Virus record (IMG/VR): IMGVR_UViG_3300020120_000284
Coordinates: 1 to 42,055 of that record
From: a virus
Taxonomy: Duplodnaviria; Caudoviricetes
Direction: 5' to 3' (one strand)
Length of the DNA: 42,055 bases
Under the pieces are notes generated by a model. That model saw only the letters and a list, made by a program, of their open reading frames with translations, was not told the origin of the DNA and ran no database searches. Numbering within the stretch: position 1 is the first letter of the stretch; every line of letters begins with the position of its first letter. The translations under genes were made by a program, and so were the position numbers. Of the stretch, positions 1-40,189 are shown one piece after another.

Positions 1-149
1 CGATCGTCGTCAACACCGGGGGCAAGCTCTACATCCATGACGGCCACCACCGAATGACCGCGCAGAAGCTTATGGGTAAGACGGAAGCGCCCGCGCGCGT
101 CGTGACGATTAAACTTGCTATGCTTAAACGATGGGCAAACCGAGATTAG
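1..149 (+). CDS. 3' end of ParB/Srx-like N-terminal-domain protein (partial)
   Basis: Frame from nt 3 reads IVVNTGGKLYIHDGHHRMTAQKLMGKTEAPARVVTIKLAMLKRWANRD*; DGHHR is the ParB/Srx motif. Confidence 0.7.
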   Translation, partial: IVVNTGGKLYIHDGHHRMTAQKLMGKTEAPARVVTIKLAMLKRWANRD

Positions 150-742
150 ACCTGTCGGGAAAAACTTTTGGGAGGCTTTGGGTGCTGGAGTGTGCCCGGT
201 TGAATCGGAGGACAGCGTGGTCTTGTCGGTGCACTTGTGGGGCGATGACTGTCGTGCGATCTGACCATCTACTGAGTGGGGTGATCGCTTCTTGTGGATG
301 CCTGATGAGAGAAGCCGTGAGTGCTCGTCGAACCATTCACGGGCTGACCGGTAGTCCCGAATACTATGCCTGGCATGGAATGAAGAGACGCTGTCAGGAT
401 CCGCTCGACAAGGGCTACAAAACATACGGCGCGAAGGGAATCGTTGTTGCGGCGCGCTGGCAATCGTTCGAGAACTTTTTTGCCGACATGGGGCCACGAC
501 CTTCTCAGAGTCACAGCCTAGATCGGTTTCCAAACAATCGGGGAAATTACGAACCTGGAAACGTTCGGTGGGCAACTGACCTTCAGCAAGGCCGGAACAA
601 GACCAACAATCGACTCGTCGAGTTCGAAGGGCGCAGACAATGTCTATCGGCGTGGGCCAGTGAACGGGGGATCAAATACGACACGCTTTATCAACGGCTT
701 GTGCACCTTCGGTGGTCCGTCGAACGGGCCATGGTTCCCTGA
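131..742 (+). CDS. HNH homing endonuclease (family A, copy 1)
   Basis: DLSGKTFGRL..CRCTCG..SCGC..YGAKGI..SLDRFPNNRGNYEPGNVRWAT; visibly lower GC than flanks. Confidence 0.85.
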   Translation: MGKPRLDLSGKTFGRLWVLECARLNRRTAWSCRCTCGAMTVVRSDHLLSGVIASCGCLMREAVSARRTIHGLTGSPEYYAWHGMKRRCQDPLDKGYKTYGAKGIVVAARWQSFENFFADMGPRPSQSHSLDRFPNNRGNYEPGNVRWATDLQQGRNKTNNRLVEFEGRRQCLSAWASERGIKYDTLYQRLVHLRWSVERAMVP

Positions 743-11153: not shown

Positions 11154-11567
11154 ATGGGAAACCTCGTTCTCGACGGTAGCCTGACGCTTGGCCCAGCCAC
11201 GCAGTCAGATGGATCGTTTCCGGCCGCCACCGTCAACGAGCCGCTGTTCTCGACGCCCAACCCCAAGCTGTTCAACGCGGCCACTGGGATCGTGCCGCGT
11301 CAGCTCAACAGTCCGGGGTCGTACCAGGCGCTCTCGGGTGCGGGCGCGACCGACACGGTGGCCAAGGGCGACACCCTGTATTTCAAGACCAACGCCCCGA
11401 TTCTGGTGCGCGCGACCTTCGCGGACCCCGGGGGCGGCGGTGATATCGTGTCGATCGTGCCGGTCTACGGGACCGTTCTGATCGAGCTCAACCCCCTCGG
11501 TTACCTCAAGCTGTTGGAGGCCAAGGGAGTCGCGACGATCGTCTACATGGTAGCGGGTCAATCGTAA
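11154..11567 (+). CDS. Putative head-associated protein
   Basis: 137-aa ORF in head cluster; ends VAGQS*. Confidence 0.6.
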   Translation: MGNLVLDGSLTLGPATQSDGSFPAATVNEPLFSTPNPKLFNAATGIVPRQLNSPGSYQALSGAGATDTVAKGDTLYFKTNAPILVRATFADPGGGGDIVSIVPVYGTVLIELNPLGYLKLLEAKGVATIVYMVAGQS

Positions 11568-11581
11568 GCTAAACTATCGGC

Positions 11582-12130
11582 GTGACGGACGCTGAGACTA
11601 AAAAAGCACGAGCTCGAGAACGATATCGCCGATATCGGGAGCGACACCGCGGACAGGTGAAAACCGAAGCCCAAAAGGAACAAAAACGAGCGGCAGATCT
11701 TCGGTACCAAGAACGAGATCCAGAGCGGACGCGCATCCAACGACGTGCAGCTCGGCGGCGGTACGCAGAGAAACACAGAGAAGAACGGTTGGCTAAGCTT
11801 CGGGAATACGCCAGGTATCTCTACAGTACTCCGGAAGGTCGTGAAAAAAAGCTACGGTACAACCGAATTTGCCGAATGAAAAGCATTTACGGGTTTACAC
11901 AAGAGGATATCGAGATCTTCAATTCCCGAAACGCCTGTGCCATTTGTGGGAACGGATTCACATCAACTCGCGACAAGCATATTGATCACGACCACAAGCG
12001 AGGTCAGACGGCAGTTCGGGGCATCTTGTGCCGAAGGTGTAACAACTCCCTAGCCGCGTTTGATGGGCCGGAACTTATCGCAAAGTTGAATGCTTATTTG
12101 GCGGCTCCACTCGGAAGTTGGAAGCAATAG
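11582..12130 (+). CDS. Endonuclease VII-like homing endonuclease
   Basis: CAICG..HIDHDH..VRGILCRRCN; Arg-rich helical N-terminus; lower GC. Confidence 0.85.
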   Translation: MTDAETKKARARERYRRYRERHRGQVKTEAQKEQKRAADLRYQERDPERTRIQRRAARRRYAEKHREERLAKLREYARYLYSTPEGREKKLRYNRICRMKSIYGFTQEDIEIFNSRNACAICGNGFTSTRDKHIDHDHKRGQTAVRGILCRRCNNSLAAFDGPELIAKLNAYLAAPLGSWKQ

Positions 12131-12206
12131 GGGTGAGCGGTCAGTCTTAGCGACTTGCTCGGCTTCGAAACGTGAGAGAAGCTACGGACACCCAAGGAGC
12201 GAGACG

Positions 12207-17023: not shown

Positions 17024-17635
17024 ATGCGTGGAAAGCGGTGTCTGAAGTGTGGGGTCATCCAGCCGGTTGAACGGTTCTACAAGGCCGGCCCCACCCAGCC
17101 CCAGACATACGGGGGCATTCGGATGCCCTGTAAGGCGTGTGTTGCTGCGTGGGTCAAGACCTATAGGCCCACCTACTGTTCAAGACCCGGGGTGAAGGAA
17201 CTTTTGCGGGAGCGGGATCGCGCGAAGGTGAAGAAGAACCCTGGTGTCTACACGGCGATTCGGGAGAGGTTCGACAAGAACCACCCGAATTATGTTCGCG
17301 ACCGGTACGCCAAAGACCCTTCTGGATTCCTGTTGAGGGCGGCCGTCAGGAGGACGAGAAAAAAGAAGACTGGTGGGACCCTCACAAAGGCCGAATGGAG
17401 GGCCGTCCTAAGCATCCGGGGCCGGCGGTGCTTCTATTGCGGGCGAGAAGGTGTTCCGCTCCAGATAGAACACATGGTGCCGGTGGTGAGGGGTGGGTGT
17501 ACAGTCGTGGGGAACGTCGTGCCGGCCTGCAAACGATGCAACGCCAAAAAGGGAACCAAGACGGCCGCCGAGTTCATGGAGTCGGTCCAGTTAAAGAACT
17601 CTTCTTTGGTCTGTTGTTTTCGGCGTCGTTCGTGA
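17024..17635 (+). CDS. HNH endonuclease (McrA-like)
   Basis: CFYCG..IEHMVP..GG..GNVVPACKRCNAKK; N-terminal CxxC..CxxC. Confidence 0.85.
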   Translation: MRGKRCLKCGVIQPVERFYKAGPTQPQTYGGIRMPCKACVAAWVKTYRPTYCSRPGVKELLRERDRAKVKKNPGVYTAIRERFDKNHPNYVRDRYAKDPSGFLLRAAVRRTRKKKTGGTLTKAEWRAVLSIRGRRCFYCGREGVPLQIEHMVPVVRGGCTVVGNVVPACKRCNAKKGTKTAAEFMESVQLKNSSLVCCFRRRS

Positions 17636-22378: not shown

Positions 22379-23069
22379 CGCCGGCTGCTCGAGGTCCTGA
22401 ACGATAGAGCTCGGGTGACAACGCCTGCTCTTCCGTCAATCCTCGACTGATGCGTTGATAGAATGTTTCGCGAGAGACCGAACGGATCTTAAGCCATTCG
22501 GCCAACGTTTTGCGCTCACCCCCCACTTCAATCCATCGGGTGTTGCGGCGTGGGTGAGTGATGACCCGTGGACGACGATTGTTACTTTGCTCGGTTGCCG
22601 TTGCCCACCGAACGTTCCCCGGTTCGTAGTTCCCGTCGTTATTGGGGTAGCGGTCGAGGGAGTGATTTGGTGTGGGACGTCTTCCGACGTCTTCGAGGAA
22701 TGCCACATAGGAGTCCTTCCATCGGGAGCACACCGAGATTCCACGGGCTCCATAGTGTGGGTAGTTTCTGCAGCGGGGATTGAAACACCGCTGGTTCATT
22801 GAGTCCCAGCAACGATATTCGGGAGTACCTCCGTGCGAAGCTTCACCGTGGGTCTTCGACGCGGCACCGAGGGCCCTGCCCAATTCGATCCTGAGACACC
22901 CACACGAACGTGAGGCCTTGGTTCGGAGTGAGTTCCCGCTGACGGCACGTTCTTCATCGGAGCAAGAACACTTGCAGACCCAATATTGGGTGCGACCCTT
23001 TTTAGGACCGATGCGTATCACGGTGAGCCTTTCGAACACGAGTCCCGTAAGATCAATGAACCTCGGCAT
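22341..23069 (-). CDS. HNH homing endonuclease (family A, copy 2), antisense
   Basis: AGGAGG RBS; MPRFIDLTG..CKCSC..SCGC..SLDRYPNNDGNYEPGNVRWAT. Confidence 0.85.
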   Translation of the reverse strand: MPRFIDLTGLVFERLTVIRIGPKKGRTQYWVCKCSCSDEERAVSGNSLRTKASRSCGCLRIELGRALGAASKTHGEASHGGTPEYRCWDSMNQRCFNPRCRNYPHYGARGISVCSRWKDSYVAFLEDVGRRPTPNHSLDRYPNNDGNYEPGNVRWATATEQSNNRRPRVITHPRRNTRWIEVGGERKTLAEWLKIRSVSRETFYQRISRGLTEEQALSPELYRSGPRAAGVTLPPTHPRTRQ

Positions 23070-23123
23070 GCTGACCTCCTGGTGTTGTAGGAATGTAACA
23101 CAGGATTCGAAAGGGAACAAGAC

Positions 23124-24774: not shown

Positions 24775-25257
24775 ATGGCCGAGCGGGCAGGTAGTGAGGG
24801 ATTTTGGGAGCACGTGCGATTTGTTTCGCCAGAACAGCGGGCCCGCATGACGCAAAAGCAGCGCGAGGTCCGAGCCGCCATGTCGCCGGAACAACGAGCG
24901 GCTTACAACAAGACCCACACGGAATACAGAGCAAAGGCTCACAAGCTGCATCCCGAAAGAGAACGCGATTACCAACGCAGAATCAAAACACCAAAGCGGG
25001 CGTGGAATCACCGGGATTGGATGTTGCGCTCCAAATATGGGCTGACCATCGAGCAGTACAACGAAATGGTTCAGCAATGTGATGGGCGATGTCACCTGTG
25101 CCACCGTAAATACGACAAATTGGTCATCGACCACTGCCACAAGACAGGCAAGGTTCGCGGTCTATTATGCAACCGGTGTAATCTTGGGTTGGGTCACCTA
25201 GGGGATTCACTAGAGGGTGTTCTTCTGGCTCTGAAGTACATGGAAGGACACAAGTAA
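24775..25257 (+). CDS. Endonuclease VII-like homing endonuclease
   Basis: KYGLTIEQY..CHLC..IDHCHKTGKVRGLLCNRCN. Confidence 0.9.
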   Translation: MAERAGSEGFWEHVRFVSPEQRARMTQKQREVRAAMSPEQRAAYNKTHTEYRAKAHKLHPERERDYQRRIKTPKRAWNHRDWMLRSKYGLTIEQYNEMVQQCDGRCHLCHRKYDKLVIDHCHKTGKVRGLLCNRCNLGLGHLGDSLEGVLLALKYMEGHK

Positions 25258-27485: not shown

Positions 27486-28121
27486 CTATCGTTGGGGCGG
27501 CTCTGTGAGCGCTCGTTCGACAGACCAGCCCATTCGAAGGCGTTGCCAGATTCGTAGACGGGTCGAGCCTAATTCTTCCGCCCAGGCCGAGATGCACTGA
27601 GTTTTTGCATTGAAGGTCAGCAGGACGGCCGTCCTACGATTTCGGGATTGCTCCTTTTTGGTGGCCCACCGGACGTTGCCGGGTTCGTAGTTGCCGTCGT
27701 TGTTGGGGAACCGATCGATAGACCAATCGGGACCCGGTCTCGGTCCTACGTACGCGTAAAAAGCTTCGAAGGAAGAAACCCAGTCCGGATGAACCCGAAT
27801 CCCGCGACCCCCATAGTTTGGATAGGCCTCGTTGTTGGGGTTCAAGCAGCGGTCTTTTAGGTGTTGCCAGACGTAAAAGGTTGGGTTCTTCCTTCCACCG
27901 GGAAGTCTCGACAGACCATGAGTCGTTTTCACGGGATTGGTCTCGGTCGCCAAACACCCGCAGGACTTGGTGTTACCTGACTTGAGGTTGCTGGGTGGGA
28001 CCTCCGTTTGGTTTCCACACTCACAAGCACAGCCCCAACGTAGTCGTTTGCCTGGAACCTTGATCCTGGTGTGCGCCGTTAGACGTCCAAACTTCTGGCC
28101 CGTGAGATCCTCATCTCGCAT
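27486..28121 (-). CDS. HNH homing endonuclease (family A, copy 3), antisense
   Basis: DLTGQKFGRL..CACECG..SCGC..YGGRGI..SIDRFPNNDGNYEPGNVRWAT. Confidence 0.85.
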   Translation of the reverse strand: MRDEDLTGQKFGRLTAHTRIKVPGKRLRWGCACECGNQTEVPPSNLKSGNTKSCGCLATETNPVKTTHGLSRLPGGRKNPTFYVWQHLKDRCLNPNNEAYPNYGGRGIRVHPDWVSSFEAFYAYVGPRPGPDWSIDRFPNNDGNYEPGNVRWATKKEQSRNRRTAVLLTFNAKTQCISAWAEELGSTRLRIWQRLRMGWSVERALTEPPQR

Positions 28122-29727: not shown

Positions 29728-30351
29728 TTACCGATTGCCGAACTTCGGAGGGGTCGTCAGGGTTTTCTCATCTGACCATCCCTGGCGCTTCCGGTAGCTG
29801 ATGGTCGACACGTGGTACCCGCGGTCTTTGGCCCAATCGACTGCACACATCGTTCGTCCCTCGAAGGTCAACCAAACGTTCGACCTTCTGTTACGACTCT
29901 GCGCGCCTGAAAGTGCCCAGATCACGTTTTCTGGTTCGTAATCACGATCGTTGTTTTTTCGCTCTAGCGTGTGAAGCGGGGAAGGTGGGGGCCCAACATC
30001 ATCAAGAAATGCAGTGAAGCTTTTCTTCCATCGGTCGCAGACCTTAATTCCGCGGGCACCGTAATCCTTGTACTTTGAGACTAGGGGGTTCGAACAGCGT
30101 TGTTTCATTGTCTGCCAACGCATGTACATCGGGTGCCAATTTTTTCGTCCCCCAGTAGTCAAACCATGGGTAGTTAGGGCAGCGCGAGAACGTTCTTTCC
30201 TGATATGCCCGCAGGAAATCACTTTTTTACCAAGAACATCCGTGCGCTGGACCTCCTTCTCAACCCCACAAGAGCAGCGGACGCGAATGTATCGCCGACG
30301 CTCTGCTGGTCCAAGGATGGTAAGTTCGCCGTATGGTGATTCGGGTTCCAT
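29728..30351 (-). CDS. HNH homing endonuclease (family A, copy 4), antisense
   Basis: VRCSCG..SCGH..YGARGIKVCDRW..TLERKNNDRDYEPENVIWA. Confidence 0.85.
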   Translation of the reverse strand: MEPESPYGELTILGPAERRRYIRVRCSCGVEKEVQRTDVLGKKVISCGHIRKERSRAALTTHGLTTGGRKNWHPMYMRWQTMKQRCSNPLVSKYKDYGARGIKVCDRWKKSFTAFLDDVGPPPSPLHTLERKNNDRDYEPENVIWALSGAQSRNRRSNVWLTFEGRTMCAVDWAKDRGYHVSTISYRKRQGWSDEKTLTTPPKFGNR

Positions 30352-30366
30352 GCGAGAGCTTAGCAC

Positions 30367-33394: not shown

Positions 33395-34297
33395 ATGCCG
33401 GATTCTGGATGGGGTTCAGCGCCGTGGGGTGGGTTTCCCTGGGGCCTTGCGGGAGGCGTGACGCCTGCGTCCGTCGAGCTCGCGGAGGCCGTGGCGATCC
33501 GTGAGAACATGGTCCAGCTGTTCTTCGTCGAGGAGCTCGAGTTCACGGGTCTGTTGGGTCTGAACGATGCGAGCTACCCCACGCACTACGCCGTCACGCC
33601 GGTCGCCGGGACCATTGGGTCCGACGGGCTACCGGCCCGGTCGGTCGGTGTCTTGTTGGTCGAGAACGTGGCGGATGGGGGAATCCCCGGCAGCATCGTG
33701 AACCTGACGCTGGACCGCCCGTTGAGTCCCTATCCGGCCCAGTATCTCGTGACGGTGCAAAACCTCGTTACCATCCCGATGACCGTGCTGAACCCGACGA
33801 ACGCCAACGCCACGTTCTTCGGAACCCAGCAGCCCGCCCCCAACCTGACGGTCCAGCAGTCGCTACCGTCGCGCGACATCGCGCACCCCGACACATTGGA
33901 GGCGGCGCTCGACCCCCTGCCCAACGCCCAGGACCCCACGGTCTTGGGGTCGATCCCCACGGGTTCGGACGGTGACTACGCGTTCGACGAGGGCATCGTC
34001 AATCTGAAGAAGCGGGTGTTCCGCCGGCTCACCACGACCAAGGGTCGGTTTCTCCACTTGGGCGCCAGCTACGGCGTGGGCGTCCAGAACTACCTGAAGC
34101 GGCTGAACATCCCGTCGGTGCGGCAGCAGATCGCGGCCGACGCGGAGTCACAGATCTCGCAGGAGCCGGACGTCCAGAAGGTGAAGGTCCGGGTCGTGGT
34201 GTCGGTGGACGTCCCGGAACAATCGAGGTTCGTCATCCTGATCAAGCCGGTCGCCGGTAAACCCGTCCGGTTCGATGCCCCCCTGATCGCACTTTAA
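33395..34297 (+). CDS. Baseplate wedge protein with gp25/gpW-like C-terminal domain
   Basis: RRLTTTKG.FLH..YGVG..QEPDV; precedes gpJ. Confidence 0.65.
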   Translation: MPDSGWGSAPWGGFPWGLAGGVTPASVELAEAVAIRENMVQLFFVEELEFTGLLGLNDASYPTHYAVTPVAGTIGSDGLPARSVGVLLVENVADGGIPGSIVNLTLDRPLSPYPAQYLVTVQNLVTIPMTVLNPTNANATFFGTQQPAPNLTVQQSLPSRDIAHPDTLEAALDPLPNAQDPTVLGSIPTGSDGDYAFDEGIVNLKKRVFRRLTTTKGRFLHLGASYGVGVQNYLKRLNIPSVRQQIAADAESQISQEPDVQKVKVRVVVSVDVPEQSRFVILIKPVAGKPVRFDAPLIAL

Positions 34298-34863
34298 CCA
34301 GTGAGACCGGTGACGACCTGCTGTAGAAATTCTTTGAATTGGAGCACCGTCAAGATCCCGCGCGCGCGGTTGATCCAAGATCCGCACAACACAACGTTTC
34401 CATCTTCATAACCCTTCGTGTTGTCCAACCGGTCGATGGACACGATCCAAAGGTCGGTGAACTCGTGGGTCATGGGCACATGCGTCCAAAAGCACCGACC
34501 TTCTTGCCGGTCCCACAAGGCTTGAAGATACGTTTTATCTATCGTGCAGGGACAATGCTGGCCGTTGCGTTCTCTGGCGGATGAATGTTGGCGAGCTTTT
34601 CGGAGGGTGGTGGTCGCCCAATTCTTGATTGCGTCCCTTCTGGCGCGATCACGATGTTTTTGGGGGTTCTCGGCATATCGGCGGCGGCAGTAGGCCCGCA
34701 CTGCTTCGGAGTTATTTTTGTTGTAGTTTTTGTGGTACTTTCTCGTTTTTTCGGGATGAGAATCCCTCCACTTTTTTTGTTACTCCTTCAGTTCTTCGAT
34801 GTGAGCAGCGCGCCAGTGTCTGTTGTACTGGCGCTGTCGTTCTTTGCGTTCCTCGTCGGTCAT
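34294..34863 (-). pseudogene. His-Me endonuclease with premature in-frame stop, antisense
   Basis: MTDEERKERQRQY..ELKE*QKKW.. continues in frame to GRCFWT..SIDRLDNTKGYEDGNV; TAA at 34782-34780. Confidence 0.75.
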
Positions 34864-34888: not shown

Positions 34889-36022
34889 ATGGATCTGCCC
34901 TCCCGTCTTGATCTATTTGCTCGAGGAAGGCAATTTGTGCTGCAGCGGGCCGACAAGATCGACCCCGCGCAGGTCGACATCCAGGGGTCCGACGTCAACG
35001 TGTTCGTCGGTTCGACGTCGGTCGTGGCGTTCGAGGTCGTCAAGCAGCTGGCGTACTCGATCAATCGGCTGCTGTTGGACGGCGCCGAGGGCGAAGACCT
35101 CGACCGGTATGCGTGGGACCGGTATCAGCTGGCGCGCAAGGGCGCGAGCCCAGCGGTCGGTACCGTCACGTTTTCGAGGAACTCGGCGGTCGTGGGGGCT
35201 GGGACCGTTCCGGTCGGCACGAAGGTCGCGACCAACGACGGCATCGAATACCTGACGACGACGGCCGCTTCATTTGGTGCGTCCGACCTGGTGGTGTCGG
35301 CAGACGTTCAGGCGGTTCAATCGGGCAAGTCGTTTCAGGTTGGGGCCAACCAGATCGTTAGGATCGGCGCCAACGCCGCTCCCGTCTTCGACCAGACCAT
35401 CGTGGTCAACAACGACCTCCCGACGGCCGGCGGTGAGGACCGCGAGGACGACGAGACGTTCAAGTCGAGGATCCGCGACTTCTGGAACACGGCACGCCGC
35501 GGCACGCTCGCCGCTATCGAGTTCGGCGCCAAGGCTGTGCCGGGTGTGGTGTCGGCCCAAGCGGTTGAGGTCATCACGACCGGCAACACGCCCGCGCGTG
35601 TCGTCCTGCTGTACATCGCGGACAGCAGCGGCGTGGCGAGCCGGGCGCTCGCCAACACGGTGTCGAATTCGCTCGGTGAGTTCCGGGCCGGCGGGATCGC
35701 CGTGATCGTGTCGACCTCGGTCCCGCAGATCGTCGACATCGTGTTGAAGCTGGTGTTCCAGGGGAACGTCGACACCGTCACGCTCAGCGCGGCGATCGTC
35801 GGGTCCGTCATCGAGTTCGTCAATTCGATTCCCGTGAACGCGCCGTTGCTGGTGGCGGATCTTCAAGCCGTGCTGAGTCGGTTCCGGTCCGACGGGTTGG
35901 TCGTCACGACTGACGCGACCACCCCGGCCAACAGCTCGATCGTGTCGCCCACGGGCGACATCGTGCCGGACGCCGGTAAGACGATCCGAACGACATCGTC
36001 CAACGTCACCCTATCGGTGTAG
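34889..36022 (+). CDS. Baseplate J-like protein
   Basis: AEGEDLD, RKGASPA.G.VTF, GGEDREDDETFKSRI, RGT..AI..VPGV motifs. Confidence 0.9.
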   Translation: MDLPSRLDLFARGRQFVLQRADKIDPAQVDIQGSDVNVFVGSTSVVAFEVVKQLAYSINRLLLDGAEGEDLDRYAWDRYQLARKGASPAVGTVTFSRNSAVVGAGTVPVGTKVATNDGIEYLTTTAASFGASDLVVSADVQAVQSGKSFQVGANQIVRIGANAAPVFDQTIVVNNDLPTAGGEDREDDETFKSRIRDFWNTARRGTLAAIEFGAKAVPGVVSAQAVEVITTGNTPARVVLLYIADSSGVASRALANTVSNSLGEFRAGGIAVIVSTSVPQIVDIVLKLVFQGNVDTVTLSAAIVGSVIEFVNSIPVNAPLLVADLQAVLSRFRSDGLVVTTDATTPANSSIVSPTGDIVPDAGKTIRTTSSNVTLSV

Positions 36023-36025
36023 CGG

Positions 36026-37861
36026 ATGACCGCCCCCATCATCCCGACGGACGGCCCTCTTTCGGAAGCTGACCTCCAGCGGATCTGGGAGTCGAGCGTC
36101 GACGACCTGTTCGCCCAACCGCTGACGGAGCTCGGTGACGGCTTTGGGCTCGAGGTGTACGGCCAGATGTTCGCGCAGCTGGCGCGCGTGTCCCGGGCGG
36201 TCGATGTGTCGACGCAAGCGATGTACATCCTGCCGTGGAGCGGCCAGACCAACGATCCGGCTCGAGGTGAAGCGCGCGCGACCGTCACGCTGACGTTCAC
36301 CCGGACCCAGCGGCTCGAGTTGCCGATGGTGGTGACGGGCGACGTCTTCATCGACGAAGAGACGACCGACTGGGGAGACAATCCGGGGGACTCCGGCCAG
36401 GTCGTCAACACGGGTCGCCGCTACACGCTGGTCGAGCCCTTGGTGTTTGCCCCGGGGGTCGCGGGCCCGCTCACGGGGTTGGCCCAGGCTGAACGACCGG
36501 GCTGGGGCTACAACAACCCGCAGCCCGACACGATCGTTGCGGTCGAGCAGGAGGGCGGCGACTTCGTCGGGTTGAACGCGACGGTCGCGGTACCGGCCGT
36601 GAGTTCCGCGACGATCACGGGATCGCCGGAGCCCGACACCTTCATCCCGGCGCACGTGGGTCAGTACTTTCTGCTGACGGCTGGGGCGAACGCCGGGAAG
36701 GTCGTGAGGGCCACGGGCTACGTGGGACCCGTGGCGGGCCAGGGCGGCACCATCCTGGTGGACCGGGAGCTGGCGCTCGACGGAACGTTCGCCGGCACGT
36801 TCTTCGAGGGCGAGGCGGTCGTCCAGGCCGGGACCGGCGCGACCGGTGTGTTCCTGGGGGCAGGCCCGACCGTCATGGTGGTGGCGATCCTGACGGGGCC
36901 GGTGGGTGGTGCCGGCGTAATCACGGGCGTCGTGAGTGGCGCGACCTTCACGCCCACCGCCATCGCGGTGGATTCCGGCCTGACACCCGAGGTAGGGGCC
37001 GCGGCGTGGCGTTCCTTCAGCTGGGCGGCTGACTGGGGCCTCTTGGTGACGAACACGGCCTCGCCCACGGGCGGGCGGCTCGGCGCGCTGGACGAGCTCC
37101 TGGGAGGCGAGCGCAACATCCCGATGGGTGCGGGCGAGGACGACGAGCGATACCGGCGCCGGGGGTCGCGGCCCGCGGACGTCGTGGCGCCCAACGCGAT
37201 CGTTCGCGTGATGAACGGGGCGTTGGCGCCCGTTGGTCTGACCGGGTGCTTCCGGGAGGCGGGACAGTCGACGTTGCCGGGCTTCTACTACGACCGCTCC
37301 GACCTGGGCGATTGGTACGACATGGACGCGTGGGTGCTGAACGGCCCGTTGGACCCGTCGCGCTACGGGTGGTTCGAGGGTGAACCGGTCCAACAGCTTG
37401 ATCCGGTGACCGGGAGGATCGCGACGGGGCGCGCGATCCTGAAGTACGATTTCATCGGTCCCGGGCCCCAGCTCTATCTGGAGTCGGTAGCGGCGGGGTC
37501 CGGGACGTTCGTCGCGTCGTTGCCGATGGTCGGCCAGCGCAGCGGTCGTGCCTATACGCCACCGCCCGGTAACGTCATCGGCGGCCCGGACCCGGCGCTT
37601 CGGTATCGGTACCTGTTCGATTACCTGGAGATGCGGGCGTTCTTCTTGATCGCGGTCCCGACCGTGAACTTCGGGGAGTTCGGGTTCGCGTGGGACGTCT
37701 ACCCGACCGGGGCGTTTGATTCGGCTCCCTTCGCATCCTTCTACGACGGGTTCGCGGCGTCCGCGAGTGCTCTTTACTCGTCGGTCTACCGGTCGATCAA
37801 CCCGATAAAGGCCGGCGGCGTTGGATTTTCAGTCATACGTGACGACGGTCCATGTCCCTGA
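36026..37861 (+). CDS. Baseplate wedge/tail protein (gpI-like position)
   Basis: Follows gpJ; GEDDERYR; C-terminal IKAGGV. Confidence 0.6.
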   Translation: MTAPIIPTDGPLSEADLQRIWESSVDDLFAQPLTELGDGFGLEVYGQMFAQLARVSRAVDVSTQAMYILPWSGQTNDPARGEARATVTLTFTRTQRLELPMVVTGDVFIDEETTDWGDNPGDSGQVVNTGRRYTLVEPLVFAPGVAGPLTGLAQAERPGWGYNNPQPDTIVAVEQEGGDFVGLNATVAVPAVSSATITGSPEPDTFIPAHVGQYFLLTAGANAGKVVRATGYVGPVAGQGGTILVDRELALDGTFAGTFFEGEAVVQAGTGATGVFLGAGPTVMVVAILTGPVGGAGVITGVVSGATFTPTAIAVDSGLTPEVGAAAWRSFSWAADWGLLVTNTASPTGGRLGALDELLGGERNIPMGAGEDDERYRRRGSRPADVVAPNAIVRVMNGALAPVGLTGCFREAGQSTLPGFYYDRSDLGDWYDMDAWVLNGPLDPSRYGWFEGEPVQQLDPVTGRIATGRAILKYDFIGPGPQLYLESVAAGSGTFVASLPMVGQRSGRAYTPPPGNVIGGPDPALRYRYLFDYLEMRAFFLIAVPTVNFGEFGFAWDVYPTGAFDSAPFASFYDGFAASASALYSSVYRSINPIKAGGVGFSVIRDDGPCP

Positions 37862-38493
37862 CGAGTCGATGCCCTGGTTGCAGGGCTGCTCATCCTCACC
37901 AGTGTGCAGCTTGCAAGGCATACAAACGGGCTTGGGCAGCGGCTCACAAGAAACCATACGTCGCCACTGAAAAATCGAGGGCTCAACGCCACGCTTACTA
38001 TCTAGCCCATCGTCACGAATGGTCGGTAAGTTCTCCCGAGGTTCAGGCGAGAGCTAAAAAGAAGTACTACGAAACCCACAAAGCCACGGTGAAGGCTCGG
38101 TCCAAGGCTTGGAAGGCGGCCAACCCGGAGAGGGTGAAGACCTCATCGTGTAAGGGGATTCGCTCCTGGAGGGCGAGGAATCCCACCAAGGTGAAGGCTC
38201 AAAAGGCGGCCTGGAAACATCGTAGACGGGCAGCGGGTCCGCTGAAAACATCAACGGTCGCCGCTATCCTGCTGAATTCAAATGGATGCGTGTATTGCGG
38301 GAGTCCTGGGCCCCTGACGTTGGAGCATCTTTTGGCGACGACAAAGGGAGGAACTAACGAACCGGCGAACCTCAAGGCGGCCTGCGTATCGTGTAATTCT
38401 TCAAAACAGGACAAGCCGTGGAAGCTGTGGTTCCGGAAGCAGGCGTTCTACTCGGTCGAACGGGAACGCCAGATCGACGGACCCTGTCCTTAG
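37852..38493 (+). CDS. HNH endonuclease (McrA-like)
   Basis: CVYCG..TLEH..GGTNEPANLKAACVSCNSSK. Confidence 0.85.
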   Translation: MSLTSRCPGCRAAHPHQCAACKAYKRAWAAAHKKPYVATEKSRAQRHAYYLAHRHEWSVSSPEVQARAKKKYYETHKATVKARSKAWKAANPERVKTSSCKGIRSWRARNPTKVKAQKAAWKHRRRAAGPLKTSTVAAILLNSNGCVYCGSPGPLTLEHLLATTKGGTNEPANLKAACVSCNSSKQDKPWKLWFRKQAFYSVERERQIDGPCP

Positions 38494-38542
38494 CCGCTGG
38501 GGGGTCAGCGTGGCACCTTCACAGGGCTAAAGCGGAGGCCGC

Positions 38543-40189
38543 ATGGGTTCAGGGTTCAAGCGAGAGGTCATCAACCCGCGCGAGCGCGCGATCAGCACCG
38601 ACATCAACCGCGCGCAGGCGTTTGCCGCGTCGGATGCCGCGACGGTCGGGCGGCTCCGACAGCTCGCCAAGAGCTCGGTCGCCAGTTCCGGGGGGTTGGC
38701 CGCGCTGGACGCGACGACCGCCACGCCGTTGCTCGGTGAGGTCGAACACGGCCTGACGGTTCGGCCGCAGCTCGGTGGGGCCCTGACGCTCGTGGAACCG
38801 GGGGTCGCGTGGGTCATCAATCCCGACGGCACCCCCCAGGCCGACGATTCGCCCTGTAAGATGGTGAACGACCCGGGCGTCACGGACGGCACGACCCTGC
38901 TGCTGCCGGCCAACGCCTCGGGCAGCACGCTCATCGGGGTGGTGGAGTGCAGTCGGGTCGACACGGTGCTCGAGACGGACAACCGCGACATCTTCGATCC
39001 GGGCACCGGGTTGTTTGCGCCGGCCGTCGTCAACAAGGTGGTGGCGGCGCGCTTTCAGTACCGGATCCGCACGATGGCGTTGGCCGGTGGGTTCGCCGGT
39101 TCTGCCGGTTGGATGCCGTTGGCCATCTTCCTGCAGCCCAACGCCGTCAACGCGTGGGACACGATCGAAATGTGGGATGTCCGACCACTCGCGTCGGACC
39201 GCGCGGTACCGGAGGGAAGGATCTCGCGGGCCGATGTTTCGGGTGGCGGCGCCGACATCAACGCGAAGCCGTCGGTTCGTGACGTCTACATCAACGTCGA
39301 GAACATCGGTGGACCCGGGAACGTGATCGTCGGGACCTGTGAGGTCGTGGGGGCGAACGGTCGATACCTGGGAGGTCAGTTCCTTCAACAGGGCGGTTCC
39401 CAGTTGAACTACACGTGGGCCGAGCTCACGCCCACCGGCTACAGCTTCGGGGGCGCCACGGGCGTCGTCAATTACCTGTATTTGTGCACGCCCTACGGGC
39501 TGCCCCGGTGGTGTAAGTACGGGACCGCGGCGATCGGCACGGGACTTGGTGGACGAGCTCCCGGACGACTCAGAGGGTTACCGGTGGTGTCGACCACCAT
39601 GACGGCGGGCGGTTGGTACAGCAACGCCATCACGCCCGTCACGATGCCGTCGTCGTGGAACACGGCGCCCGTGTGTGTTCCGCTCGACACGGCGTGCGTG
39701 TGGACGTTCTTGTCGGCGCCGGGCCCGACCTTTCCGCTCGACATCACGACCGACGGGACCGTCACGTGGCAGAACCCCGCCGAGAACGTGGCGGTTGGTG
39801 ACGTCACGGGGGGCGGCGCCACCACCCAGTTGGTCAACTTCGACTTCGTCGGCAACACCCACTATCCCAACAACGCGCGGGCCATCTGGGTGCAGGTGGA
39901 CGTGGAGTACGGGATCAACGTCCCGTCACCCGGGACCGCCGTGGTCGAGGCGTTTTCTCTACAGCCGGGGACCAACCGACCGGTCGCCAAGGTGTTGAGT
40001 CAGGCGCACCAGATTCTGGCGGGCGGGATCTTCGTGCGGCACGACTTGTTCCGCGTGCCGGTCGACCCAAAGACCGGCAACACCGGCACCTTCACCACGC
40101 GGGTGGAGTACGACCACAACGGCGCGGCCTTCGCGTATGTGGCGGCCCCGACGATTGCGGTTGGCCGGGTGGTTGGCTGGGAGATCTGA
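38543..40189 (+). CDS. Putative tail fibre/receptor-binding protein
   Basis: GGAGG RBS; 548 aa after baseplate; ..WDVRP N-terminal anchor pattern. Confidence 0.55.
   Translation: MGSGFKREVINPRERAISTDINRAQAFAASDAATVGRLRQLAKSSVASSGGLAALDATTATPLLGEVEHGLTVRPQLGGALTLVEPGVAWVINPDGTPQADDSPCKMVNDPGVTDGTTLLLPANASGSTLIGVVECSRVDTVLETDNRDIFDPGTGLFAPAVVNKVVAARFQYRIRTMALAGGFAGSAGWMPLAIFLQPNAVNAWDTIEMWDVRPLASDRAVPEGRISRADVSGGGADINAKPSVRDVYINVENIGGPGNVIVGTCEVVGANGRYLGGQFLQQGGSQLNYTWAELTPTGYSFGGATGVVNYLYLCTPYGLPRWCKYGTAAIGTGLGGRAPGRLRGLPVVSTTMTAGGWYSNAITPVTMPSSWNTAPVCVPLDTACVWTFLSAPGPTFPLDITTDGTVTWQNPAENVAVGDVTGGGATTQLVNFDFVGNTHYPNNARAIWVQVDVEYGINVPSPGTAVVEAFSLQPGTNRPVAKVLSQAHQILAGGIFVRHDLFRVPVDPKTGNTGTFTTRVEYDHNGAAFAYVAAPTIAVGRVVGWEI

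What the first reader, a model, noticed from the sequence alone, without database searches (positions are those of the whole stretch)
37844..38493. Duplicated C-terminus DGPCP* on both sides of an HNH gene, differing only synonymously
The baseplate gene ends GAC GGT CCA TGT CCC TGA (37844-37861). The HNH ends in frame with GAC GGA CCC TGT CCT TAG (38476-38493). The peptide is the same, with changes only at wobble positions and in the stop. Upstream context also echoes (GFSVIR vs FYSVER). The CCA codon supplies the A of the HNH start ATG at 37852. Inference: the HNH inserted near the host stop, uses the old terminus as its own and carries the new one.
Basis: partly seen in the sequence, partly recalled or inferred. 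Interest (0 to 1): 0.82.

Follow-up and report, generated by a model that had tools for sequence, protein, structure and literature searches.

The report
Phage nuclease swaps baseplate gene's end
A likely selfish DNA-cutting gene sits inside the last codons of a phage baseplate gene, which stays whole thanks to a foreign-looking copy of its end, while the other, likely original, end has become the nuclease's own tail; six of nine related nucleases carry such tails, and this layout is documented in yeasts and fungal mitochondria.

Summary
Confirmed. The baseplate-region gene (36026-37861) and the HNH gene (37852-38493) both end DGPCP*. The tail belongs to the host family (44 of 71 homologues have Cys at -2). 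Of 308 HNH relatives, six end in host-type tails of 5-11 residues, all in one 9-member clade; none outside it does. Two 99%-identical host alleles differ in 5 of their last 10 residues. The HNH whose contig has the same length as one allele's ends with the other allele's tail (ETGPCP), and it begins MPLT, the frame-shifted reading of a host P-C-P-stop. The window's upstream copy has foreign codon use (GC3 4/13 versus 0.875). Best reading: a homing element that replaces the gene's 3' end, like yeast WHO elements and fungal mitochondrial mORFs, but with the stranded end translated as the nuclease's C-terminus. Cleavage and homing are untested, and I obtained no DNA for other occupied loci. The 'GFSVIR/FYSVER' echo is coincidental. 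A second, weaker cassette of this layout lies at 11550-12150. I found no phage report in 10 literature searches; this scan has noted the layout in at least 20 other genomes.

The parts
36026..37861 (+). Host gene, 611 aa, likely a baseplate wedge subunit (follows the baseplate J gene 34889-36022)
   Evidence: No Pfam/PHROG hit for this protein. 6 of 43 aligned homologues hit phrog_6 baseplate wedge and 6 hit phrog_1160 baseplate protein. AlphaFold model (pLDDT 83) has its best Foldseek hits in phage baseplates (T4 5iv5_B E 2.9e-5, cyanophage A-1(L), phiCD508), with low TM-scores.
37811..37828 (+). A-G-G-V-G-F codons: conserved block holding the inferred left boundary (about 37820) and the inferred nuclease target region
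   Evidence: G598 invariant; A596, G597, V599 at least 90% conserved in 43 homologues; GC3 change point at 37820; P0007/P0142 diverge right after GGVGW. Target role is inference.
37820..37861 (+). Inferred new, element-supplied host 3' end (VGFSVIRDDGPCP*), covering the last predicted beta-strand (residues 599-605); also holds the HNH start codon
   Evidence: GC3 4/13 versus 0.875 in the gene body (binomial p 3e-6, window chosen post hoc); lowest body window 8/13; drop 0.57 versus maximum 0.32 in 71 relatives; strand.
37852..38493 (+). HNH endonuclease gene, 213 aa: basic helical N-terminal part, CxxC-H-N-CxxCN core intact
   Evidence: Pfam HNH E 3e-8; C146, C149, H159, N173, C178, C181, N182 invariant in 81 sequences; AlphaFold pLDDT 90, last three residues 52; GC3 0.62.
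38476..38493 (+). Inferred old, stranded host 3' end (DGPCP*), in frame as the nuclease's C-terminus and stop; the D codon could be nuclease-native
   Evidence: Scores 16.8 bits on a host-tail profile versus at most 4.8 for non-clade HNH; P0144 has 'ID' at the same place.
38494..38542 (+). 49-nt spacer to the next gene (38543-40189), similar to the host-stop-to-next-gene gap in HNH-free relatives
   Evidence: Gaps mostly 3-83 nt.

Best explanation
This is likely a free-standing homing endonuclease element: an intact HNH gene sits in the last codons of a probable baseplate wedge gene, the host gene ends in a likely element-supplied copy of its last ~13 codons, and the likely original end is read in frame as the nuclease's own C-terminus. 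Shown: both copies, the start and stop overlaps, the host-family origin of the tail, its recurrence in a nuclease clade, the codon-use break, and a near-identical allele pair with swapped tails. Inferred: (1) the nuclease cuts or nicks HNH-free alleles near the conserved AGGVGF codons; (2) repair from the occupied allele copies in the differently spelled 3' end, which keeps the protein whole and would resist re-cutting, followed by the HNH; (3) the right-hand crossover falls in the stranded codons or the downstream gene, so the tail is either refreshed from the recipient or carried along; (4) the nuclease is made by re-initiation at the ATG that overlaps the host stop.
For: Host-family tail: 44 of 71 homologues have Cys at -2, and 6 of 71 end xGPCP. 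Nuclease clade: P0072 DGPCP, P0074 ETGPCP, P0270 ERIGCP, P0271 YEEDSACP, P0292 EMYLETGPCP and P0269 FDIYIEDIDCN score 16.8-25.1 bits on a profile of 40 host tails; the next best of 308 scores 4.8; host leave-one-out is at least 16.5 for 37 of 40. On a tree of tail-trimmed cores (88 of the 308 rows) these six fall in one 9-member group, SH-aLRT 82; 6 of 9 versus 0 of 299, Fisher p 7e-11. Allele pair: P0007 (..GGVGW-TLYEETGPCP) and P0142 (..GGVGW-ELVLDNGPCP) differ at 8 of 628 residues, 5 of them at 619-624; 0 of 26 other within-cluster pairs have more than one change in the last 15 residues. P0142 and HNH P0074 each lie on a JGI contig of 17,849 bp. P0074 starts MPLT, the frame-shifted reading of a host P-C-P-stop; only P0072 and P0074 of 308 start M[PS][LVM]T. 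The longest tail (P0269) starts at the F after GVG, matching the left boundary found by codon use (37820). HNH-free alleles are the norm: none of 64 viral or 69 metagenome loci has this HNH there (the sets overlap, 71 distinct ends; 16 loci lack the gene end). Precedent: WHO elements and mORFs.
Against: No DNA was obtained for any occupied locus other than the window. The P0142-P0074 link rests on equal contig length and the MPLT start, and P0007 is not shown to be HNH-free. P0074 and P0292 group together (SH-aLRT 91) and share ETGPCP, so that tail could be inherited within the element rather than taken from the recipient. The window's downstream copy is not host-like in codon use (GC3 2/5; only 3 of 41 high-GC relatives are that low), so it was probably not taken recently from the present host. 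Three of the nine clade members lack a clear tail (P0073 degenerate EAGSAP plus 11 aa, P0144, P0147). The tree is a quick tree on 120 columns. The search profile contained two tails (mild ascertainment), though the best-scoring stretches of P0269 and P0270 ended before the tail. No HNH-free allele of this phage was seen in 8 runs. No activity data.
Confidence: 0.8

Rival explanations
1. One ancient capture: the element took the tail once, and the nuclease keeps the x-G-x-C-P peptide because it serves the protein (metal ligand, stability or binding to the baseplate), with no refreshing at each homing event.
For: The Cys is kept in 6 of 9 clade members whose cores are only about 40% identical; sisters P0074 and P0292 share ETGPCP; the window's stranded copy is not host-like in codon use.
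Against: Tails vary in length (5-11 residues) and mirror different host alleles (FDIYIEDIDCN, ERIGCP, EDSACP, ETGPCP); P0073 and P0144 keep intact cores without a clean tail; the last three residues are low-confidence in the model (pLDDT 52).
Confidence: 0.12
2. Ordinary insertion with an 18-bp target-site duplication; the upstream copy is the original and the downstream copy drifted.
For: The duplicated stretch in the window is short (18 nt), and both copies encode the same peptide.
Against: All three codon changes are synonymous; the foreign codon use is in the upstream copy and extends 8 codons beyond the duplicated part; in P0142 the upstream end is the one that differs from the sister allele; other clade members carry up to 11 host residues.
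Confidence: 0.05
3. Coincidence, or DGPCP is a normal end of this HNH family regardless of context.
For: Only five residues are shared.
Against: 0 of 4,481 neighbouring ORF pairs share 5 terminal residues; 0 of 299 non-clade HNH have a host-type tail; 0 of 56 distant HNH loci with an upstream ORF share its end, best score 12 versus 35.
Confidence: 0.01
4. The insert is a self-splicing intron (or a translational bypass) that rejoins the host gene to the downstream end.
For: HNH genes are common in phage group I introns (established knowledge).
Against: No Rfam match at E <= 1 over 37500-38800; the HNH frame fills the insert; the host ORF is complete with its own stop before the insert.
Confidence: 0.02

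Closest known systems
WHO homing elements at FBA1 of Torulaspora and Lachancea yeasts (PMC7282813; passages read)
   Same: [quoted passage not shown]
   Different: Phage rather than yeast; HNH rather than an intein-zinc-finger nuclease; stranded piece 5-11 codons rather than about 400 bp. [quoted passage not shown] The nuclease start lies inside the new host end. Allele-specific cleavage is shown for WHO and untested here.
Mobile endonuclease ORFs (mORFs) forming gene hybrids in fungal mitochondria: Glomus atp6, atp9, cox2, nad3; Allomyces macrogynus atp6 (PMC3630166; passages read; the Allomyces paper itself not read)
   Same: The element carries a foreign C-terminus that completes the host gene; the native C-terminus is left downstream of the endonuclease ORF and matches the relative's allele.
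   Different: Mitochondrial LAGLIDADG or GIY-YIG; duplicated ends are tens to a hundred codons; the passages read do not describe the native end serving as the nuclease's terminal peptide.
Free-standing phage homing endonucleases (T4 seg/mob, Aeh1 mobE in nrdA, ICP1 HEGs, Skunavirus HNHs; PMC2988022, PMC10448857, PMC12724721; passages read)
   Same: Promoter-less HNH cassette near or in an essential gene, site-specific clades, nuclease-rich phage genome.
   Different: Those described lie between genes or split a gene into two polypeptides. In the passages read none replaces a gene end; 'duplicat' occurs 0 times in two of the papers and twice in the third, where the one passage shown is unrelated.
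Engineered homing drives with a re-coded rescue (HomeR; PMC7968924; two passages read)
   Same: Logic of cutting an essential gene while carrying a re-coded rescue.
   Different: Synthetic, Cas9-based and in insects; an analogy only.

Membership tests
3'-end-replacing homing elements (WHO/mORF type) | Endonuclease gene flanked by two copies of the host gene's 3' end | tested here: met
3'-end-replacing homing elements (WHO/mORF type) | Upstream copy completes an intact host ORF and is foreign | tested here: met
   ORF full length versus 71 homologues; GC3 break at 37820; P0142 tail differs from its 99% sister.
3'-end-replacing homing elements (WHO/mORF type) | Downstream copy matches the empty allele | tested here: inconclusive
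   P0074 tail equals P0007 tail at 6 of 6 residues, but there is no DNA, P0007 is not shown empty, and inheritance within the element is possible.
3'-end-replacing homing elements (WHO/mORF type) | Empty alleles exist with synteny otherwise intact | tested here: met
   0 of 64 and 0 of 69 related loci carry this HNH at the site; the nearest are about 53% identical to the window's protein.
3'-end-replacing homing elements (WHO/mORF type) | Allele-specific cleavage near the boundary; new end resistant | not testable with these tools
   Needs a cleavage assay.
Free-standing HNH homing endonuclease | Intact HNH catalytic and zinc motif | tested here: met
   Pfam PF01844 above cut-off; invariant C, H, N residues; nearest solved structure is the Geobacter Gme HNH nicking endonuclease 4h9d (Foldseek E 4.5e-3).
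Free-standing HNH homing endonuclease | Biased inheritance in mixed infection | not testable with these tools
   Phage uncultured, host unknown.
WHO element proper | Intein-zinc finger WHO protein targeting FBA1 | tested here: not met
   The protein is an HNH and the host gene is a phage structural gene.
Group I intron | Ribozyme core detectable by covariance model | tested here: not met
   No Rfam match at E <= 1.

The most novel reading that the evidence does not exclude
A whole phage HNH lineage lives welded to the end of one baseplate gene: its start codon is built into the replacement gene end it carries, and its stop and last residues are the invaded allele's own. Each homing event can therefore swap a new host tail onto the nuclease and a foreign last beta-strand onto a virion protein, and the nuclease's tail would be a readable record of the last allele it invaded.
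Probability: 0.45. Interest if true: 0.72.

Novelty: new variant of a known kind. Interest (0 to 1): 0.6.

Why it matters
It would extend intron-less, intein-less 'replace the gene end' homing, described in yeasts and fungal mitochondria, to tailed phages and to a structural gene. It explains how a nuclease can target a conserved coding motif in a likely essential gene without splicing or splitting it. The variant is very compact: about 13 new codons, 5-11 old ones, and both ends of the nuclease frame borrowed from host sequence. The near-identical allele pair gives a ready substrate pair for testing allele-specific cutting. It also warns that the termini of phage genes next to nucleases can be foreign.

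Tried and rejected
DNA for other occupied loci: not found. Searches: viral contigs with the HNH alignments A2 and A4, P0269 and P0142, metagenome contigs with A3 and genome contigs with A5 (one 37% hit in a MAG labelled Armatimonadetes, too weak to name a host). Clade search in 50 related phage records: 8 of 50 have weak matches only (best E 8.5e-22). Empty allele of this phage in soil runs: no joint across the insert in 8 of 24 runs laid (contigs drop rare variants). Cultured phages: no tblastn match of the host protein in 50,697 records. Intron: rejected. Promoter scan 37500-38700: no sigma-70-like site; 3 terminator-like hits against a shuffle mean of 1.0, not interpreted. Ten inserts or low-GC gaps in the window were checked for terminus copies; only 11582-12130 and this one showed one. 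In a regex scan of family loci, 2 of 12 nucleases with a same-strand upstream ORF showed it, both in the window. PMC5626475 and PMC12308204 (passages) added little beyond a mention of rps3-LAGLIDADG fusions. The careful tree did not finish; the quick tree was used.

Full report
Observation. The 611-codon gene 36026-37861 ends GAC GGT CCA TGT CCC TGA. The 213-codon gene 37852-38493 ends GAC GGA CCC TGT CCT TAG. Both read DGPCP*, with third-position changes only, and the second gene's ATG overlaps the first gene's CCA TGT. None of 4,481 neighbouring ORF pairs in the fetched loci shares five terminal residues. Contigs of public soil runs cross both junctions with at most a synonymous change at 37822 (8 of 24 listed runs laid; X1 may be the source sample).

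The genes. The second gene is an HNH endonuclease (Pfam E 3e-8) with all zinc and catalytic residues invariant across 81 relatives. Its model is confident except at the start and the last three residues, and the nearest solved relative is a Geobacter HNH nicking enzyme. The first gene has no direct family hit. It follows baseplate J, some homologues hit baseplate PHROGs (6 of 43 for each of two families), and its model resembles baseplate wedge chains at low TM-score, so 'baseplate wedge subunit' is likely but not proven. The window is a phage fragment with at least nine free-standing nuclease genes; its host is unknown.

Whose tail is it? It is the host's. Of 71 host homologues, 44 have Cys at -2 and 6 end xGPCP, after a conserved AGGVG[FW] motif. 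In 64 viral and 69 metagenome loci of the host gene (overlapping sets, 71 distinct ends; 16 loci lack the gene end) none carries this HNH there, and the next gene usually follows within 3-83 nt. Among 308 HNH relatives from three searches, six score 16.8-25.1 bits on a profile of 40 host tails and the next scores 4.8: DGPCP (window), ETGPCP (P0074), ERIGCP (P0270), YEEDSACP (P0271), EMYLETGPCP (P0292) and FDIYIEDIDCN (P0269). On a quick tree of tail-trimmed cores (88 of 308 rows) the six group with P0073, P0144 and P0147 (SH-aLRT 82); 6 of 9 versus 0 of 299 gives p 7e-11, assuming no clade member among the rows left out of the tree. P0073 has a degenerate EAGSAP plus an extension; P0144 and P0147 have no clear tail. 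Among 56 more distant HNH loci with an upstream ORF, none shares that ORF's end.

Which copy is new? (a) In the window, host GC3 is 0.875 but 4/13 in the last 13 codons, with a change point at 37820; no 13-codon window in the body falls below 8/13 (the length was chosen post hoc). The drop of 0.57 exceeds the maximum of 0.32 in 71 relatives, and from 37822 the window leaves the family consensus at most third positions. (b) Host proteins P0007 and P0142 differ at 8 of 628 residues, five of them at 619-624 (TLYEETGPCP versus ELVLDNGPCP); 0 of 26 other within-cluster pairs have more than one change in the last 15. P0142 and HNH P0074 each come from a JGI contig of 17,849 bp. P0074 ends in the P0007 tail and begins MPLT, as a frame-shifted P-C-P-stop would read; that start pattern occurs in only 2 of 308 proteins, the other being the window's MSLT. 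(c) The longest tail (P0269) begins right after GVG, where (a) and (b) place the left boundary.

Against. I have no DNA for these other loci, and P0007 is not shown to be empty. P0074 and its sister P0292 share ETGPCP, so the tail may be inherited within the element. The window's downstream copy is not host-like in codon use (2/5; 3 of 41 high-GC relatives are that low).

Mechanism (inferred). The nuclease would cut or nick empty alleles near the AGGVGF codons. Repair from an occupied phage in a mixed infection would bring a differently spelled 3' end that restores the last beta-strand (residues 599-605) and removes the site, then the HNH, whose frame runs into the stranded host codons and uses their stop. 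Expression would be by re-initiation at the overlapping ATG; no promoter-like site was found. Whether tails are refreshed at each homing event or kept for a protein role is open. An intron is unlikely.

What is known. WHO elements in yeasts replace the 3' end of FBA1 and strand the old end as a homology arm (PMC7282813, passages). Fungal mitochondrial mORFs bring foreign C-termini to atp6, atp9, cox2 and nad3 (PMC3630166, passages). Phage reviews and surveys describe intergenic or gene-splitting nucleases, and I saw no end replacement in the passages read (PMC2988022, PMC10448857, PMC12724721). Ten literature searches gave no phage report; most subscription papers are not covered and no supplements were read. 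The scan's own notes list at least 20 genomes with similar layouts (unchecked AI notes), and none for this protein or genome. It works like a WHO/mORF element but is not a WHO element.

A second case lies in the same genome. Gene 11154-11567 ends VAGQS*, an Endo VII-like nuclease follows (11582-12130; family label from motif recall), and VSGQS* lies at 12133-12150, out of frame just past the nuclease stop; five of five relatives lack a nuclease there. This is weaker (4 of 5 residues) but has the same geometry with an unrelated nuclease.

Verdict.

Noticed in passing
window 11550-12150: Second terminus-duplicating cassette: gene 11154-11567 ends VAGQS*, an Endo VII-like nuclease follows at 11582-12130, then VSGQS* at 12133-12150 out of frame after the nuclease stop; 5 of 5 relatives have no nuclease here and end xxGxx*.
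   Followed up: partly
window 131-742, 11582-12130, 17024-17635, about 22400-23120 (-), 24775-25257, 27486-28121 (-), 29728-30366 (-), 34294-34701 (-), 37852-38493: At least nine free-standing nuclease genes of several HNH/Endo VII types in a 42-kb morphogenesis region; labels for those not scanned rest on motif recall.
   Followed up: partly
window 17024-17635: The HNH runs past the apparent start of a small downstream ORF and ends inside it in another frame; no copy of the upstream gene's end was found.
   Followed up: partly
L026:6852-7535 (-); L005:6812-9037; L131 and L141 (2,009-nt gap): Other insertions at the same site behind the host gene: a reverse-strand unrelated HNH in L026 and multi-gene inserts in L005, L131 and L141, suggesting an insertion hotspot.
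   Followed up: no
L006:6846-6884: An HNH-free allele (P0008 type) whose last 13 codons are also somewhat AT-shifted (GC3 8/13 versus 0.94) and whose end resembles the 'new' tail of P0142; it may be a scar or a donor.
   Followed up: no
L167, L184, L185, L198, L199, L200, L203, L206, L208, L210, L220, L223, L228: A distant HNH group (ending IFKWRxI..) sits repeatedly right behind a 260-340 aa gene with an acidic end; no terminus duplication was seen.
   Followed up: no
window 37822 and 37125: Soil-run contigs differ from the window at 37822 (T>A, synonymous, 5 runs) and 37125 (T>G, 3 runs).
   Followed up: no
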